Source: a virus (taxonomy: Duplodnaviria; Heunggongvirae; Uroviricota; Caudoviricetes). Taken from it: 55,048 nucleotides of DNA. Location: the IMG/VR virus record IMGVR_UViG_2541047910_000003, positions 1 to 55,048 of that record. One strand, given 5' to 3'. Numbering within the stretch: position 1 is the stretch's first letter; each line of letters opens with the position of its first letter. The position numbers were made by a program. Shown here piece after piece: positions 9,001 through 15,000 of this stretch.

Positions 9001-12000
9001 ATATACATTTGGGTAATGCTTAGAAAAATATGCCTCAATACCATTTGGTCGTTTTAGCCCGTATCTACAAGCTAGTGAATTTGCAAACTCAATAAATGAT
9101 GCTCCTCCTGTTCGTGTGTGTTTCTCCTGGATGATAAGAGAGGCAAAATTCTCTAACACATCCTCCTCATTATCATTAGCTACCTTTTCACTTGATGAAA
9201 CAGGTGTTTCTTCCGTCTCCCACGGCAAAGGCGCATCCCAATCATCAAGAACATCAAAAGAAGGCTGTTTATGGCCTTTAGGTTGTTCCTGTGCTTCTTC
9301 TGCCTCAGAAAGATCAGAGAGTGATGATTCTCCTGGGGGAGTAATATGTGCATCTGTAAATGGTAATGCTTTATAGAGTGATGTTTGACCGTCCCGTGCC
9401 TCTACAGAAAGAACTCCCATATCAACAAACATATTTATAATATTGCGAACCTGGCGATCACTAACCATTCCAATATTAGCTAATGTTTTTTGAGTAGCGT
9501 AACATTCTTGCCCTTGTTCATTGAATCCAGCTATATAGCTATAGATTTCAACGGCTGGCAGTGTAGCGGTGTATTCATTACCAGATGGTGAATACCATTT
9601 TTTAAACATCTTCAACCATTGCTCAACAACTACATATTTTTGTTTACCATCTTTCTGATTTAGACATTTGGCTTTCGCTTCGGCAATTGTTTTGATATTT
9701 TTGATCATTTAGTTCCTCCTTTGTAAGGACTGTAATTAGTAGTTCATTAACAAGTTTTGGAATTGATTTCCCTTCTGCCTTTGCGCGATTTAACAACGCG
9801 TTATAAGTTGCAGAATCAAAATTAATATTCATTTGGTTTTCTCCTTCTCCTGTTATTATTCTTTCTCTGCTTCTTTCTTACGCAGTTCATCAATAATCTT
9901 GAGTGCTTCATTGAAGCAAGCTGCTCGCTCTGGATAACCTCGACTCCTTGCCATATTACGATTCATTACTACTTGGTGGCGTGTAAGCTCACCTTCTTTA
10001 AATGCCTGTACGACGTGTTCCGGTGTAAACCATTTCATAAAAACTCCTTATTCAGTTAAAAGAAAAAACACCTTGCAAGCCTGACGGCTTCAAAGTGCAT
10101 TGATTTTGATTATTTAGAGAAGAATGTTTTTCTGTCCCTCTAATACCTATTATTACATATAAAGAAACATTTGTCAATACCCTTTTCGAAAAAAATCGAT
10201 CTTTTTCAGCATGTTATAATTTGTCTTAGCAATTCGTGCTCTTCTGTGTAGTGCTATTCTTCATTATTGTCTAAAACGCTCTAAAACGCGTTCTAACGAA
10301 GTTTTGATAAAAGCAATACATTCTCTTATGTAGAGGCTATTTATCTCGTCAGAGGCTTATTTAAGGGGCTTATTTTGTATTTGTTAGGTATATGAAAAGG
10401 TGATGGTAGATATAAAACAGAGAGTCACTTTATAAAACGTTCTGTAAAGCCCTGTAGTGAGCTTATATATGTAGGCAATGCGTTTCCATTCCCTACCCTG
10501 CTTAATGCTGTTAGAGAAGCATTTAGACCCCTTATTTTTAATTACCTAAAGTATCCTCTATACATCTCTGTTATGAAACACCTCTGAATCCTTCATAAAA
10601 CACATTATGACGCAAAGAACACCTTTTCTAAGGTGATTCCCTTCCTGAATGCTGTTTCTTGCGTCAGAGAGCTACATAGAGCTTATAAAGCTATTATTAA
10701 TAATAAAGTAGATAAAGTAAGTAAGATAAGTAAGAAGATTAACTAAGATAGATAAGATTAATAAGATCAGAATTCTCTTTCGGTGTCGCCTCTGGCTTTT
10801 CCACCGAAAACAATTACACGACTACAGAATGTAGGAAGTGGAATTGTATTGAGGCTTAGTGAAATTACACGAGGAAAGCAGAGTGTAATTGAGCTTTAGC
10901 CGCTCTCTCTTCGAGTAATTACACAACTACAGAGAATAACGAGAGTTATTAAATGTAGGAAGTGGAATTAAGAGGTAGAGAGATAGAGTTAACACATAAG
11001 CAATCAGTATGATTGGTTAGGTGATTACTCTTCTGCGCACAGCGCAATAGTATTTCTTCGTGGGCGTTACCGCCAACGATAGTTACACGAAGAAAGTAAC
11101 GCTTTGCTTTCGGTGTGAGCGGAACGGGCCAGCCAACGTAGCCCAAAGGTAGCGGAGTAAGGCTGCTTGCCAGAGAGTGAAGCTAACGCCGGAAGGCAAA
11201 AAGATCATATATATATAGTATAAAGAATATTATTTATATTATTTAATTATAGTATTTAATTATAGTATTTAATTATAGTATTTAATTATAGTATTGGTGG
11301 AACTCATTTCCTAGGTAGGTAGGAACTCATTTCCTAAGTAGGTAGGAAACCACTTCCTAGGTTACTTCCTAAATAGATCGGAAATCATTTCCTAGGTGTT
11401 ATTTATACTTATCGGGTATCAGTTTTGATAGGGGTATCAGACTTGATAGGGGTAACAGAATTCTGTGGGGGTAGCTCACAGTGACCTACCGTTACTACCA
11501 ACTTTCTTACAGAGAGCATTTCAGATAGCTGAATGTAACCTCTCGTTACATCCATTTGTCACATAGCACTCTGTGTAATGCCTTTCTATGTGTGTGCCAT
11601 AATCCCCCTATATTCCCTGTGTAAATCATAGAATAATGCTCTCTATTCCCTGTGTAATTCCATACTAAAAATTCAATGAAAAAGTAGCTTAAAAGTGCAA
11701 TTCTCACTTTCTTCACTTTTACATCACTTTCGCAAAGCCTTGTGTAATGCGGCTTACAGCGCACTATCAGAAATTGTTGGCTAAAAATTGTTCTGCTTGT
11801 TTCTTAATGAGTTTTCTTGTTTGTGCAAATTTTAAAATTTATTTTGTTTTTACAGCCTTATTTCGTGTAATGCGTGGCATAGCAAGCCCTTTTCTTGTGT
11901 TGTCAAGACATTTGGCAACGTTCAAACATCTGTTTAGAAATGCCAAATTGTTGATCTAACAAATAAACCTGTATAAACAGAACACCATTTAATCTATTCC

Positions 12001-15000
12001 CCTGTGTATCCATTAGGCATACCAAATGAATACATCTAAATCGTGTAATATTCCGTACCTATAAGGCTTGAAACAGACAAAATGAATACGATATACTCAT
12101 TTGCATTGAAGTAGTGCCAAATCGATACATTAAGAGGATTTTATGAGCAATATCGGTTATAAGCGTGTGAGCACTGTAGATCAGAACACTGATCGCCAGC
12201 TTGCAGGAGTAACGCTTGATAAAGTCTTTGAAGATAAGCTGTCAGGTAAAGACACTAACCGTCCAGGATTGCAGGCGTGTTTATCCTATCTGAGAGAAGG
12301 CGACACCTTACACGTCCACTCTCTTGATCGTTTAGGGCGTAACACCTTAGACATTCTGGAGTTAATCAAACAATTGAATGATCGAGGTGTAATTGTTCGC
12401 TTTCACAAAGAAGGAATCATTGCTGACATTACAAGCGCGATGGGAAAGATGATGCTTACGATGTTGTCGGCAGTTGCAACGTGTGAACGTGAACTGATGT
12501 TAGAGCGTAAACGAGAAGCGCAAGCCGTCAATCCTACAAAGCGTGGTAAAGGGAAGGCAGTAGATAGGGAAGGTATAAAGAAAGCCCTTTCCGCTGGCGT
12601 GTCAGTGCGTAAAACCGCCGAGAGCTTTAATGTTGCTCCTTCAACGGTGCAACGTATCAAGAAGGAAGAAGAGGAGGCGTAATGCCTCCTTGATATTTGG
12701 GGATTCTGGATTTTCCAGATCGGGGGGCGCTGATCTTCGCGTTAAACATTGATCACGTTTGCGCCGATTTCAGATAAAAAGGCAGCTATTAAGCAATACG
12801 TAACTTTTACAATTAGTGAAATTATCTAAAACACAAGTTATATAGATGAGAAAATGAAATATTATCTTGAACAAATCAAACAAAACAACACATCATCTTG
12901 TTGACACCATGCAAAGTGAATAGTAAGCTATTATATGTGAAAATTTGCACATTGCATGCAATAAAAAATAAATGATACCTTGTTGTTGTTAAATCAATAG
13001 GGGGTATCTATGCGCTTTATCTTATCCATTTTAAAAACCTGCAGAACCACAATTACTTTAGCTGTAATTGTTACCATCATATACCTCATCTATTTTACCC
13101 CTCGAGATAAAATCGATTCACTAGCGATCATCGTTCATGCAATGGCTACATTAACTAAAAAACTTTAATAATTTCACTATCAGGCGCACAAACACATCTT
13201 TGATTGCTGGATGTGTTATGCGCCTACTGGTGATTCAATCCTTAAGCCATTTCAACTCACTAAGGAGTTTTCTTTCTTCGTTCTCTCGCTGTTTACGCTC
13301 TAGCCAGGCTTTTCCCTCTGGCGTAGACAGGAACTTACGAGCGTGAATCTTGCGGTTATTACGTTTTATAGCTGCAATGTTTTTCATCGTGTTGCCTCTG
13401 TATTCATATGAAAATTAACAAGTTACATACTACACAGGGAGACTACGCATAAAACACAATACAAGTAAAGATACATTTTCAAGACAATAGGAGCCATAAA
13501 GCGCCTTTGATGGTTATACCAAAAAATAAGCGCCGTAGGCGTATCCACTAAAAGGGCTTTTTCACAAAAGCTATGAAGTCTTAGCAGTTCTTCTCTTATC
13601 AGGCACCCGTTGTACTCCGGTGGACGAAACCGTGCTAGAGCTTGATTCTTTCCCGATCAAGTTAGGTTTTGAAGAGGTGGGCTTTAATCCACTATTGCAC
13701 TTAAAACTCTTCCCATCATTTAGCCTGTTTATCCTCTGCAACGTCTCACGACGTGTGGCATCATTGGACACCGCGCCAGGTGTGGAACATCTTGCTAAGA
13801 GTTTTGGTAGAAGGTTTAGAGACGGTGGCACGTCTTCCAGCTTCAAAGGAACTTGTTACGAGGTTGAGCCTGGGAACTACTCGCCCATACGTGTTACACT
13901 ACCAAAGCCCATAACAACGTATAGGCGTTTGTAAGTGATAACAGAAGATACAATTTCTTAGAGAAGTTAAGCTAAGTTATTGATTTTCTTAATGGTGCCG
14001 ATAATAGGAGTCGAACCTACGACCTTCGCATTACGAATCTGTAGCACCAATCATAACTATCTGTTTTAGCAAGCATTAACCGCATTCACTAAGCTATAGT
14101 TGATGGCACAAACAGAAAGCTGATGCATGATGTTGTCATGTGTATGTCACAAATACGGCACAACGATCTTCAAACATGTAGCCACTCAGCATAGAAGAGC
14201 ACAAAGCCTTGCAATCCAGTGCAAAGCTTTGTGTGTCTCAGTTTTTATAAATTCTTAAGCAAGAATTATAGTTATAACTATTATGTAAGTTTTATGATAT
14301 ATATTGTATTTAAATGCTGGTTTTACTTATTAACCCAACCTGTAGCATTTGTGTTGCTTTCCTTTATATAAAGTACTGTATTTCCACCTCCATCAGAACG
14401 AGTGTAAATAGAACCAACTGGTGCTCCAACTCCGCTAGATGTTGGGTTGCCTTCTTGCCCAAATATCACAAGTGAGCTTTTATCTGTAGCTTGATTATTC
14501 TGTGTGGCTGATGTTCCAAATGAAACATTCCCTATAAATGACACGCTCTTACAGCTTGATGTAGCAAATATACCAACTGATGGTTTATTATTTGCAACGC
14601 CATCACGAATTTGATTTGAACTAACAATTACATTTTCTGCACCAGAGTCAATTCGTATGCCATTATGGTTATTATCTGCGGTAGAAACCCCAACTATAAT
14701 GTTTGATTGAATAGTAACATTTGAATATTTACCATTAATATGAATCCCATGCAGGGAAATATTTCTAAAGATGTTGCTAGAAATTACAACATCATGCGAA
14801 AAACCAGACCCTATAAATTCTTCTGCATTAGTTTCAGAAATCCATAAAGAACTTGATGTTCCTGAATCGTATTCATTATTAGAGATGATTGATTTGTTAA
14901 TAAAATCACCTTTGAAAAAACCGATTCCGCCTCTTGCTGTGTTTCCAGTGACAGTTAGTCCTGAAACCCATCTTGCGTCTACTGCATATGATTGAGACTC

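What the first reader, a model, noticed from the sequence alone, without database searches (positions are those of the whole stretch)
10039..12142. 2.1-kb ORF-poor region packed with several repeat families (octamer sites, 13-bp tandem AT repeats, 22-bp iterons, 17-bp tandem repeats)
Four perfect tandem copies of ATTTAATTATAGT (11241..11292), four about 22-bp GGAA(C/A)TCATTTCCTAGG iterons (11299..11398), two tandem TTGATAGGGGTAnCAGA units (11426..11459) and at least five AATTACAC octamers (10810..11100) occur together, along with a low-complexity aagata/agtaag tract (10690..10760). This architecture is typical of an iteron-controlled replication origin with an AT-rich unwinding element and possibly a partition site, which would mean the element can replicate autonomously. 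The only ORFs predicted here (10949..11146, 11546..11764, 11747..11959) look spurious.
Basis: seen in the sequence. Interest (0 to 1): 0.5.

Follow-up and report, generated by a model that had tools for sequence, protein, structure and literature searches.

The report
Satellite replication origin plus structured element
This gene-free 2.1-kb stretch is the control region of a 12.5-kb phage-like element integrated in E. coli: it holds the element's probable replication origin (an AT-rich tract plus four repeats matched to the element's own initiator protein), leftovers of earlier origins, and a conserved, strongly folded ~420-base segment that matches no described RNA family.

Summary
The repeats are real and non-random. 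The region (10039-12142) lies between divergent promoters inside a ~12.5-kb element. The element carries an integrase and a capsid gene and is integrated at tRNA-Thr (thrW), in tandem with a P22-like prophage.

The origin reading is supported by comparison, not by experiment. In 15 E. coli-type loci and 8 loci from other genera, the iteron array next to the AT-rich tract changes together with the N-terminal winged-helix domain of the initiator (8977-9708). At least six specificity types were seen. The 1.45 kb between these two blocks stays 88-95% identical, and the neighbouring small regulator does not co-vary.

The "17-bp tandem repeats" and adjacent sequences are relics of iterons of other specificities, stacked to the right of the active array.

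The "AATTACAC octamers" are stem arms of a ~420-nt structured segment (10776-11196, + strand; z = -8). This segment always sits immediately 5' of the AT tract. It is conserved with compensatory changes across Enterobacteriaceae, is strand-specific in 31 of 31 variants, and is absent from Rfam. Its role is unknown; I guess priming or activation of the origin.

No partition genes were found. Seven GTGTAAT copies in the right flank remain unexplained.

The parts
8977..9708 (-). Initiator gene (243 aa). The N-terminal winged-helix domain (about aa 1-115, encoded 9365-9708) is specificity type A. The C-terminal domain ends in DDFDIPF.
   Evidence: Pfam HTH_36. PHROGs replication initiation, O-like and DnaD-like families. 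Modular N- and C-terminal domains. The N-terminal block 9358-9835 is one of only two non-homologous blocks against type B and C elements.
10149..10177 (-). Promoter-like site for the leftward (rep/capsid) operon: TTGACA, 17 nt, TG-n-AATAAT.
   Evidence: 11 of 12 consensus matches with an extended -10. An equivalent TTGACA-17-TAGAAT was read by eye in Citrobacter L016.
10056..10098 (-). Hairpin plus U-run in the 5' leader, between the promoter and the first start codon (terminator- or attenuator-like).
   Evidence: RNA fold. 10059-10104 is 93% identical in Citrobacter although its flanks are not alignable.
10706..10767 (+). Purine-rich low-complexity tract. It overlaps a weak promoter-like TTAACT-17-TAAGAT (10739-10767) that would start a + strand transcript near 10775.
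   Evidence: TRF. The promoter was read by eye and scores below the scan threshold, so it is an inference.
10776..11196 (+). Conserved, strand-specific, highly structured segment (RNA or single-stranded DNA). It contains all the left-hand AATTACAC/GTGTAATT copies as stem arms.
   Evidence: MFE -159.4 kcal/mol, z = -8.1. The minus strand gives -127.7. DNA parameters give z = -8.8. The sliding profile peaks here only. Helix list. Covariation. 31 variants. No Rfam family.
11197..11298 (.). AT-rich tract (candidate DNA-unwinding element) with a GATC at its left edge and a 13-bp tandem array at 11230-11295.
   Evidence: An AT-rich tract holds the same position, immediately left of the iterons, in every variant whatever the iteron type.
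11299..11394 (+). Four type-A iterons (GGAAnTCAnTTCC dyads) at 11299, 11322, 11345 and 11380, spaced 23/23/35 bp, with a degenerate unit at about 11362-11376.
   Evidence: The same iterons occur with the same Rep N-terminal domain in L001 and L002.
11414..11459 (+). Relic of type-D iterons (GGGTATCAGnnTTGATAGGGGTA), 2.6 copies.
   Evidence: There are 3-5 copies next to the AT tract in Citrobacter L016 and Enterobacter L051/L057, which share a type-D Rep N-terminal domain.
11455..11466 (+). Single relic of the type-E iteron core ACAGAATTCTGT.
   Evidence: There are 5-6 copies in L053 and L054.
11472..11490 (+). Single relic of the type-B iteron TAGCTCACAGTGACCTACC.
   Evidence: There are 4-5 copies in all seven loci with a type-B Rep.
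11534..11550 (+). Single relic of the type-C iteron TGTAAC-N4-CGTTACA, with a partial copy at about 11490-11500.
   Evidence: There are five copies in all four loci with a type-C Rep.
11573..12049 (+). Seven same-orientation YYGTGTAAT-like motifs (11573, 11619, 11652, 11742, 11865, 12005, 12043). Function unknown.
11910..11955 (.). Nested palindrome TTGGCA..TTCAAACA..TGTTTAGAA..TGCCAA, conserved across genera. Function unknown.
   Evidence: 84-85% identical in Buttiauxella L011 and Citrobacter L016 while the surrounding DNA is not alignable.
12068..12101 (+). Recombinase promoter-like site TTGAAA-18-TATACT, overlapped by the dyad AAATGAATAC-GAT-ATACTCATTT (12079-12101). A half-site repeat lies at 12018-12033. 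Candidate operator or res site.
   Evidence: repeat D12, and sequence. This stretch is not conserved in the O104-type element, whose recombinase is only 61% identical. The functional assignment is an inference.
12143..12682 (+). Small serine recombinase (179 aa), closest to gamma-delta/Tn3 resolvases.
   Evidence: Pfam Resolvase. PDB best hits are gamma-delta and Tn3 resolvase, E about 1e-29. The slot is filled by 186-205 aa tyrosine recombinases in other genera.

Best explanation
The region is the intergenic control region of a ~12.5-kb integrative, capsid-gene-bearing (satellite-like) element. Its core, 11197-11394, is the element's vegetative replication origin.

Proposed mechanism. Four dyad-symmetric iterons are bound by dimers of the element's own initiator through its N-terminal winged-helix domain, as lambda O binds ori-lambda. 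They sit next to an AT-rich tract that is melted on binding.

Relic iterons. The repeats just to the right (11414-11555) are non-cognate relics of earlier origin modules. They were left behind when the initiator's DNA-binding domain and its iterons were exchanged.

Structured segment. The ~420-nt segment immediately to the left (10776-11196, + strand) is the constant, specificity-independent part of the replicon. It most probably acts in cis at initiation. It could be a transcript running into the AT tract (pre-primer or R-loop/transcriptional activation, ColE1 RNA II-like). Alternatively it could be hairpins extruded by the unwound + strand that serve as priming signals (ssi/PAS-like).

Recombinase. 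The adjacent small recombinase probably resolves multimers of the replicating circle at a site just upstream of its own gene.

What is shown: the repeat anatomy, the Rep-iteron co-variation, and the conserved strand-specific structure.
What is inferred: binding, melting, the role of the structure, and multimer resolution.
For: 1. The initiator. It matches HTH_36 and the PHROGs replication-initiation, O-like and DnaD-like families.

2. Modularity. Rep has unrelated N-terminal domains on a shared C-terminal domain. O104-type elements show the converse: the same N-terminus (96% over 138 aa) with a different C-terminus and the same iterons.

3. Type matching in E. coli-type loci. In 15 loci, the iteron array next to the AT tract always matches the Rep N-terminal type: A x3, B x7, C x4, D x1.

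4. Type matching in other genera. Type D (L016/L051/L057), type E and an E-like form (L054, L059; L053 carries the E iterons but its Rep was not identified) and type F (L049/L058) follow the same rule, even where the C-terminal domains differ.

5. Only two blocks differ. Against type B and C elements, the window differs in only two non-homologous blocks, 9358-9835 and 11283-11480. They are separated by 1.45 kb that is 88-93% identical.

6. The small regulator is not the determinant. The small RHH-like ORF inside the first block does not track iteron type, so the Rep N-terminus is the specificity determinant.

7. Origin-like geometry. Arrays hold 3-6 direct repeats, at 22-23 bp spacing in types A, B and E, and every unit has an internal dyad. 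An AT-rich tract always lies on the same side.

8. The structured segment. z = -8.1, a unique peak in the local profile. On 6 sequences, 98 consensus pairs include 20 with double compensatory changes; 92.5% of cells are paired against 86.5% in shuffles (0 of 500) and 29-40% when partners are slid. One hairpin shows 10-11 double changes among 31 sequences. The + strand is more stable in 31 of 31 variants, with median z -5.6 against -2.5. The segment always directly precedes the AT tract and iterons, whatever the iteron type.

9. Recombinase slot. It holds a serine enzyme in E. coli and unrelated small tyrosine enzymes elsewhere.

10. Validated precedent. In Vibrio PLE satellites the RepA_N domain and an origin in a noncoding region co-vary, and only cognate pairs replicate (PMC8263062, read).
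Against: - There is no experimental evidence of replication or of Rep binding.
- No DnaA box (TTWTNCACA) occurs in the region, and no helicase or helicase-loader gene was recognised in the element. How the host replisome would be recruited is therefore unknown.
- The HTH_36 hit is at threshold (25.2 bits against a 25-bit cut-off). NCBI names many relatives "transcriptional regulator".
- The origin lies 1.6 kb from the rep gene, unlike lambda, where ori is inside O.
- Many of the loci compared are closely related, so the counts are not independent events.
- The covariation statistics rest on few lineages and on structures derived from the same alignments.
- A global consensus fold of 31 variants recovered only 18 pairs, because hairpins are swapped or inserted.
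- No promoter for the structured segment passes the scan.
- In O157 Sakai, the small prophages Sp1 and Sp2 neither circularised nor replicated after mitomycin C (PMC2669165). I did not establish whether either corresponds to this element.
Confidence: 0.8

Rival explanations
1. The iterons are operators, not an origin. On this reading the HTH_36 protein is a transcription factor, as many database records name it, and the arrays regulate divergent transcription. The co-variation would then reflect regulator-operator specificity.
For: NCBI calls many relatives "transcriptional regulator". The Pfam hit is at threshold. The region lies between divergent promoters. Each iteron is a dyad, like an operator.
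Against: The arrays lie about 1.1 kb from the leftward promoter and about 0.7 kb from the recombinase promoter. They always abut an AT-rich tract. PHROGs hits are all to replication initiators. The protein shows the two-domain swap pattern typical of initiators. The small RHH-like ORF next to rep is a more plausible operon regulator.
Confidence: 0.1
2. The repeats form a partition (centromere) site bound by a ParB- or ParR-like protein.
For: Arrays of direct repeats between divergent promoters resemble parC or parS sites. A small RHH-like protein is encoded nearby.
Against: No ParA, ParM or TubZ-type NTPase or ParB was recognised among the element's ORFs. The RHH-like protein does not co-vary with the repeats, whereas the Rep N-terminus does.
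Confidence: 0.04
3. The repeats are integrase arm sites, a degenerate mobile-element end, or the target of the adjacent recombinase (a res site or invertible switch spanning the region).
For: A serine recombinase gene abuts the region. GTGTAAT copies lie in opposite orientation left and right of the core.
Against: The att cores are at 1455-1473 and 13991-14038, more than 2.5 kb from the repeats. The central segment has the same orientation relative to its flanks in all 15 E. coli-type loci aligned across it, and the 30 full-length genome hits listed each join on a single strand. The left-hand copies are explained as stem arms. The iterons are unchanged between elements whose recombinases are only 61% identical. 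Relatives with tyrosine recombinases share the type-D iterons seen as relics here.
Confidence: 0.03
4. The structured segment is not functional as a single strand. Its apparent structure would be a by-product of duplicated inverted DNA repeats, for example decayed palindromic binding sites or a packaging (pac/cos) site read as double-stranded DNA.
For: The minus strand also scores well (z = -5.8). Two hairpins are paralogous duplicates (D3/D6). No promoter passes the scan. The element has a capsid gene but no recognisable terminase, so some packaging signal must exist somewhere.
Against: The + strand is more stable in 31 of 31 diverged variants, with a median z gap of 3 units. G-U pairs are invariant in the consensus. 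Compensatory double changes keep stems while the sequence changes. Long-range closing helices join the two ends.
Confidence: 0.12

Closest known systems
Phage lambda O protein and ori-lambda, with the O/ori specificity types of lambdoid phages (comparison from established knowledge, not tested here)
   Same: About four iterons, each with internal dyad symmetry and presumably bound by initiator dimers. An AT-rich tract flanks one side. The initiator has two domains, and its N-terminal DNA-binding domain co-varies with the iterons while the C-terminal domain is exchangeable. PHROGs O-like hits support the relationship.
   Different: Here the origin is not inside the initiator gene. It lies 1.6 kb away across conserved DNA. 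No P- or DnaC-like loader gene was recognised. The C-terminal domain is unrelated to that of O and ends in an SSB-tip-like IPF. A conserved structured segment abuts the AT tract.
Modular RepA_N/ori replicons of Vibrio cholerae PLE satellites (PMC8263062; PMC7145576 not read)
   Same: Both are integrative phage-satellite-type elements. The origin is made of semi-palindromic iterons in a large noncoding region, separate from the rep gene. The DNA-binding domain and the origin co-vary, while the C-terminal domain is conserved. In PLE, cognate specificity was shown experimentally.
   Different: The initiator family differs (HTH_36/O-like rather than RepA_N). There are at least six specificity types rather than two. 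Relic origins are retained in a stack. There is an adjacent structured segment. Nothing has been tested experimentally here.
Iteron plasmids (pSC101, P1, F, R6K, RK2)
   Same: Direct repeats at about two helical turns, an adjacent AT-rich tract with 13-mer-type repeats and a GATC, a plasmid-encoded initiator, and a neighbouring multimer-resolution recombinase (as with F ResD/rfsF and P1 Cre/lox).
   Different: There are no DnaA boxes. The initiator is not of the Rep_3 family. No partition genes were found. The element is chromosomally integrated in 896 of 898 places.
ColE1 RNA II pre-primer, and single-strand initiation signals (RSF1010 ssiA/ssiB, G4-type ssi, PriA-dependent pas sites)
   Same: A several-hundred-nucleotide, strand-specific, multi-hairpin element lies immediately next to the point of initiation. 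It is oriented toward the origin, as RNA II is, or it lies on the strand that would template the first leading-strand primer, as ssi sites do.
   Different: There is no sequence or Rfam similarity. RNA II-type origins have no iterons or Rep protein. Known ssi sites are 50-150 nt, not about 420 nt with a closing helix. This is an analogy of function only; membership was not shown.

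Membership tests
Iteron-type origin with cognate initiator (lambda O/ori-like) | Three or more direct repeats of 17-23 bp at roughly helical-repeat spacing | tested here: met
   Four units spaced 23/23/35 bp; 0 of 100 shuffles reach the count.
Iteron-type origin with cognate initiator (lambda O/ori-like) | AT-rich unwinding tract directly adjacent to the iterons | tested here: met
   The tract at 11197-11298 includes the 13-bp x5 array. 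The position is conserved in all variants.
Iteron-type origin with cognate initiator (lambda O/ori-like) | Element-encoded initiator whose DNA-binding domain is specific for the iterons | tested here: met
   Met by comparison only. The Rep N-terminal type matches the proximal iteron type in 15 E. coli-type loci (types A-D) and in other genera (types D-F). Only two blocks are swapped. The neighbouring ORF does not co-vary. Physical binding was not tested.
Iteron-type origin with cognate initiator (lambda O/ori-like) | Supports initiator-dependent replication | not testable with these tools
   Needs cloning and replication assays.
Iteron-type origin with cognate initiator (lambda O/ori-like) | Origin located inside the initiator gene (lambdoid hallmark) | tested here: not met
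   The iterons lie 1.6 kb upstream of the rep start, across DNA that is conserved between types.
Iteron plasmid origins (pSC101/P1/F/RK2 type) | DnaA boxes flanking the iterons or AT tract | tested here: not met
   TTWTNCACA has no match between 10039 and 12142.
Any described RNA family (Rfam 15) | Covariance-model match to the structured segment | tested here: not met
   No hit at E <= 1 in 9500-14400. No hit at gathering score in five relatives apart from tRNAs, isrO and isrC elsewhere in those loci.
Partition site (parS/parC) | Adjacent partition NTPase and centromere-binding protein genes | tested here: not met
   No Par family was found among the element's ORFs in the Pfam, PHROGs and NCBIfam scans.
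res site of a small serine recombinase | Dyad subsites immediately upstream of the recombinase gene that vary with the recombinase | tested here: inconclusive
   A dyad at 12079-12101 overlaps the -10, and a half-site repeat lies at 12018. The upstream DNA diverges where the recombinase is 61% identical. No functional test was possible.
Known phage-satellite families (P4-like, PICI/cf-PICI, PLE) | Family marker genes (P4 alpha/sid/psu; PICI alpA plus pri-rep; cf-PICI portal, protease and terminase; PLE RepA_N) | tested here: not met
   The element encodes a DUF6538 tyrosine integrase, a gpE-like capsid protein, a Dit-like tail protein, a 611-aa protein with no family match, an HTH_36 Rep and a small recombinase. 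None of the marker families was hit. Helper dependence is unknown.

The most novel reading that the evidence does not exclude
The ~420-nt segment at 10776-11196 may be a new class of origin-associated structured nucleic acid. It would be the invariant cis-acting core of a family of Enterobacteriaceae satellite-like replicons whose iteron/initiator specificity modules are repeatedly swapped around it. On this reading it works with an initiator whose C-terminus (…DDFDIPF) mimics the SSB C-terminal tip (…DDDIPF). That mimicry would recruit SSB-interacting host proteins such as PriA, DnaG or the clamp-loader chi subunit to hairpins on the unwound + strand, or to an R-loop. The result would be a DnaA-independent initiation route that needs no helicase loader of its own.
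Probability: 0.15. Interest if true: 0.7.

Novelty: new variant of a known kind. Interest (0 to 1): 0.55.

Why it matters
The element is common: its control region is found in 753 of 5,426 complete E. coli genomes, with up to four copies per genome. Relatives occur in Citrobacter, Enterobacter, Klebsiella, Cronobacter, Kluyvera, Buttiauxella and other Enterobacterales, and I found no description of it in the literature searched.

If the origin assignment holds, it gives a minimal replicon (Rep plus about 800 bp) for testing whether these capsid-encoding islands are inducible satellites.

The family carries at least six interchangeable initiator/iteron specificities, with a visible "fossil stack" of discarded origins. 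That makes it a natural system for studying how replicon specificity is swapped. Possible drivers are incompatibility between co-resident copies, or origin-targeting nucleases of helper phages, as shown for PLE and ICP1.

The conserved, strand-specific structured segment is a concrete candidate for a new structured RNA or single-strand DNA priming signal. It can be tested directly with public RNA-seq data and structure probing.

Tried and rejected
- Known RNA families. Rfam found nothing on the window at E <= 1, and nothing on five relatives at gathering score.
- Similar DNA in phage records: no match.
- Similar DNA in plasmid records: only two E. coli hits, one of them a 4.9-Mb record that must be a chromosome. 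The region is specific to this chromosomal element family.
- DnaA boxes: none in the region.
- Right-hand GTGTAAT copies as decayed type-C iterons: rejected. Only the known relic at 11534 matches TGTAAC-N4-CGTTACA within 3 mismatches, and window-wide hits are at chance level.
- The small RHH-like ORF as iteron binder: rejected, because it does not co-vary.
- Inversion by the neighbouring recombinase: no inverted arrangement in any locus examined.
- Integrase arm sites: rejected on position.
- Global consensus fold of 31 variants: it gave only 18 pairs, because the sequence alignment cannot follow swapped or inserted hairpins. I therefore relied on the 6-sequence alignment, on one well-aligned hairpin, and on per-sequence z-scores.
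- Literature. Searches for a description of the element (thrW islands, O157 Sp1/Sp2, satellite families) gave nothing that could be tied to it.
- Coding potential. No ORF above 72 aa, and no family hit for the ORFs flanking the region.
- I did not build a covariance model or predict protein structures.

Full report
**Observation**

The region 10039-12142 has no ORF above 72 aa.
- Four perfect 13-mers lie at 11241-11292, which TRF extends to 5.1 copies.
- Four GGAAnTCAnTTCC iterons start at 11299, 11322, 11345 and 11380. The pattern gives 8 hits against 0.79 expected, and 0 of 100 shuffles reach this.
- An 18-bp unit is repeated 2.6 times at 11414-11459.
- A purine-rich low-complexity tract lies at 10706-10767.
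- AATTACAC has three exact direct copies, one inverted copy and one degenerate copy.

**Context**

The window is E. coli chromosome. A ~12.5-kb element runs from an att core at 1455-1473 to a partial tRNA-Thr copy at 13991-14038. It lies in tandem with a P22-like prophage that ends at thrW, 53605-53680.

The element encodes the following:
- a tyrosine integrase (1558-2892);
- a leftward operon with a Dit-like tail protein, a 611-aa protein with no family match, a gpE-like capsid protein, several small ORFs, an HTH_36/O-like initiator (8977-9708) and two small ORFs;
- then the 2.1-kb gap;
- then a rightward serine recombinase (12143-12682).

The gap is bounded by two promoter-like sites. The strong one is leftward (10149-10177) and is followed by a hairpin plus U-run in the leader. 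The other (12068-12097) precedes the recombinase gene.

The same region occurs in 753 of 5,426 complete E. coli genomes, almost always on the chromosome, and is unannotated in nearly all of the hits listed. It is absent from phage records.

**The origin**

The initiator is modular. Aligned relatives carry at least three unrelated N-terminal winged-helix domains (types A, B and C) on the same C-terminal domain. The O104:H4-type element has the window's N-terminus, 96% identical over 138 aa, on a different C-terminus.

I fetched loci for each type and extracted the DNA between two conserved anchors. In all 15 E. coli-type loci, the iteron array directly next to the AT-rich tract matches the Rep N-terminal type.

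| Type | Iteron | Loci |
|---|---|---|
| A | GGAAnTCAnTTCC | window, L001, L002 |
| B | TAGYTCACAGTGACCTACC | seven loci |
| C | TGTAAC-N4-CGTTACA | four loci |
| D | TTGATAGGGGTA | Citrobacter L016 |

Against type B and C elements, the window differs in only two non-homologous blocks. One is 9358-9835, which holds the Rep N-terminus and a small RHH-like ORF. The other is 11283-11480, the iterons. They are separated by 1.45 kb that is 88-93% identical.

The RHH-like ORF is not the specificity determinant.
- Near-identical versions accompany B, D and F iterons.
- L016 and L051 share D iterons and a D-type Rep N-terminus, but have different small ORFs.

Further types in other genera obey the same rule, even when the C-terminal domains differ.
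- Type E is ACAGAATTCTGTTAC in L053 and L054, with a related form in L059.
- Type F is a 32-bp unit with the core ACATCA-N3-TGATGT in L049 and L058.

All iteron types have internal dyads, and an AT-rich tract always lies on their left. This is the lambda O/ori-lambda design. It also closely parallels the experimentally validated RepA_N/ori modules of Vibrio PLE satellites (PMC8263062).

**Relic iterons**

The window's sequence to the right of its A array contains relics of four other types:
- 2.6 copies of D;
- one copy of E;
- one copy of B;
- about 1.5 copies of C.

Other loci show the same stacking.
- L045 (Rep B) has a full B module followed by a complete A module.
- L038 has B then D.
- L001 has A, then D x5, B x2 and C x3.5.

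New modules are evidently inserted at the junction with the left flank, and old ones decay in place.

**The structured segment**

The + strand of 10770-11200 folds at -159.4 kcal/mol, against -113.5 ± 5.7 for dinucleotide shuffles, so z = -8.1. The minus strand gives -127.7. DNA parameters give a similar picture. In a sliding profile across 8000-13800 this is the only strong peak.

All left-hand AATTACAC/GTGTAATT copies, and repeats D3 and D6, are paired arms of hairpins inside a fold closed by long-range helices 10776-10809 with 11108-11196.

Homologues with shared anchors (GGCTTAGTGAA, GCGCACAGCG, GAGCGGAAC) occur in Citrobacter, Enterobacter and Klebsiella elements. They also occur in 39 metagenome contigs.

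The evidence for conserved structure is as follows.
- On six sequences, RNAalifold gives 98 pairs, of which 20 show double compensatory changes. 92.5% of cells are paired, against 86.5% in shuffles (0 of 500) and 29-40% when partners are slid. Several G-U pairs are invariant.
- Among 31 representatives, one hairpin alone shows 10-11 double changes.
- The + strand is more stable in 31 of 31 representatives, with median z -5.6 against -2.5.
- Relatives that lack the anchors still show a + strand structure peak at the same relative position.
- The segment always directly precedes the AT tract and iterons, whatever their type.
- No Rfam family matches.

I conclude that this is a selected, strand-specific structure and the constant part of the replicon. 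Whether it acts as RNA or as single-stranded DNA, and what it does, is inference.

**Other components**

The recombinase is closest to the gamma-delta and Tn3 resolvases. A dyad overlaps its promoter. In all other genera the slot holds an unrelated 186-205-aa tyrosine recombinase. That pattern fits a generic need for site-specific recombination next to the origin, for example multimer resolution.

Initiators with four unrelated C-terminal domains all end in (D)(P)IPF, and the window's ends in DDFDIPF. This resembles the SSB C-terminal tip, which recruits PriA and other partners (PMC7145534 and PMC10018359 abstracts, PMC5531588). It is a lead for how a DnaA-box-free origin, with no helicase or loader gene recognised, might engage the host replisome.

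**Unresolved**

- The function of 10180-10700.
- The purine-rich tract.
- The right-hand GTGTAAT motifs.
- The cross-genus palindrome at 11910-11955.

**Verdict**

The origin interpretation is supported, with about 0.8 confidence, by comparative evidence only. The partition idea is not supported, and the arm-site idea is excluded on position. The octamers and the 17-bp repeats are reinterpreted as stem arms and fossil iterons. The origin is a new variant of a known kind. The adjoining structured segment is the most novel feature.

Noticed in passing
window 1455-14038: The finding lies inside a ~12.5-kb integrative element. It encodes a DUF6538 tyrosine integrase, a gpE-like capsid protein, a Dit-like tail protein, a 611-aa protein with no family match, an HTH_36 Rep and a small recombinase, but no recognisable portal or terminase. 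It is bounded by a 19-bp tRNA-Thr 3' core (1455-1473) and a 46-nt partial tRNA copy (13991-14038), in tandem with a P22-like prophage at thrW. It fits none of the described satellite families. The capsid protein family has only 52 clusters, all from Enterobacterales.
   Followed up: partly
window 8980-9000 (minus strand; last 7 codons of the initiator): The initiator ends in DDFDIPF. Relatives with three other, unrelated C-terminal domains also end in (P)IPF or LPF. This resembles the E. coli SSB C-terminal tip DDDIPF, which docks PriA and other partners.
   Followed up: partly
window 10056-10098 (minus strand): A stable hairpin followed by UUUUUUCUUUU sits in the leader, between the strong leftward promoter and the first start codon. 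It is 93% conserved in Citrobacter while its flanks are not alignable. It could be an attenuator or antitermination target controlling the whole rep/capsid operon.
   Followed up: partly
window 12143-12682; L016 4204-4785, L011 3747-4328, L013 3706-4323 and others: There is non-orthologous replacement in one slot. E. coli elements carry a 179-183-aa serine recombinase next to the noncoding region. Every relative examined from other genera carries a 186-205-aa tyrosine recombinase there.
   Followed up: partly
window 11573-12049: Seven YYGTGTAAT-like motifs, all on the + strand and irregularly spaced (33-140 bp), lie between the relic iterons and the recombinase promoter. They do not match any iteron type, and nothing found here explains them.
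   Followed up: partly
window 11910-11955: The nested palindrome TTGGCAacgTTCAAACAtcTGTTTAGAAaTGCCAA is 84-85% conserved in Buttiauxella and Citrobacter elements, where the surrounding DNA is not alignable and the recombinase is of a different family.
   Followed up: no
L045 11418-12074; L038 2062-2530; L001 15095-15595: Some E. coli copies carry two complete origin modules in tandem: B followed by A, or B followed by D. Others have expanded relic arrays. Some genomes hold up to 4 copies of the region. Whether co-resident copies always differ in type was not checked.
   Followed up: no
L011 6152-7609; L013 5949-7442; L052 6637-7563: Some relatives (Buttiauxella, Kluyvera, one Enterobacter) have a 485-497-aa DEAD/ResIII helicase-like protein, or a 308-aa protein, in place of the HTH_36 initiator. 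They have no detectable iteron array, yet keep a + strand structured peak at the same relative position.
   Followed up: no
L049 4394-5083 (K. pneumoniae relative): A Dam-family methylase gene is inserted inside the equivalent noncoding region. In E. coli a GATC marks the left edge of the AT-rich tract (window 11194-11197).
   Followed up: no
window 13100-13400: A second local structure peak on the + strand (z about -5.9 for the 300-nt window starting at 13100) lies beside a conserved 50-aa ORF (13235-13387, minus strand), in the second ORF-poor stretch of the element (12683-14000).
   Followed up: no
window 960-1298 (minus strand): A truncated N-terminal fragment (Arm-DNA-bind_3 domain) of a P4-type integrase lies just outside the element's left end. 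It suggests the remains of an earlier occupant of the same tRNA site.
   Followed up: no
window 37348-37503: tRNA-Thr(tgt) and tRNA-Asn(gtt) genes lie inside the P22-like prophage.
   Followed up: no
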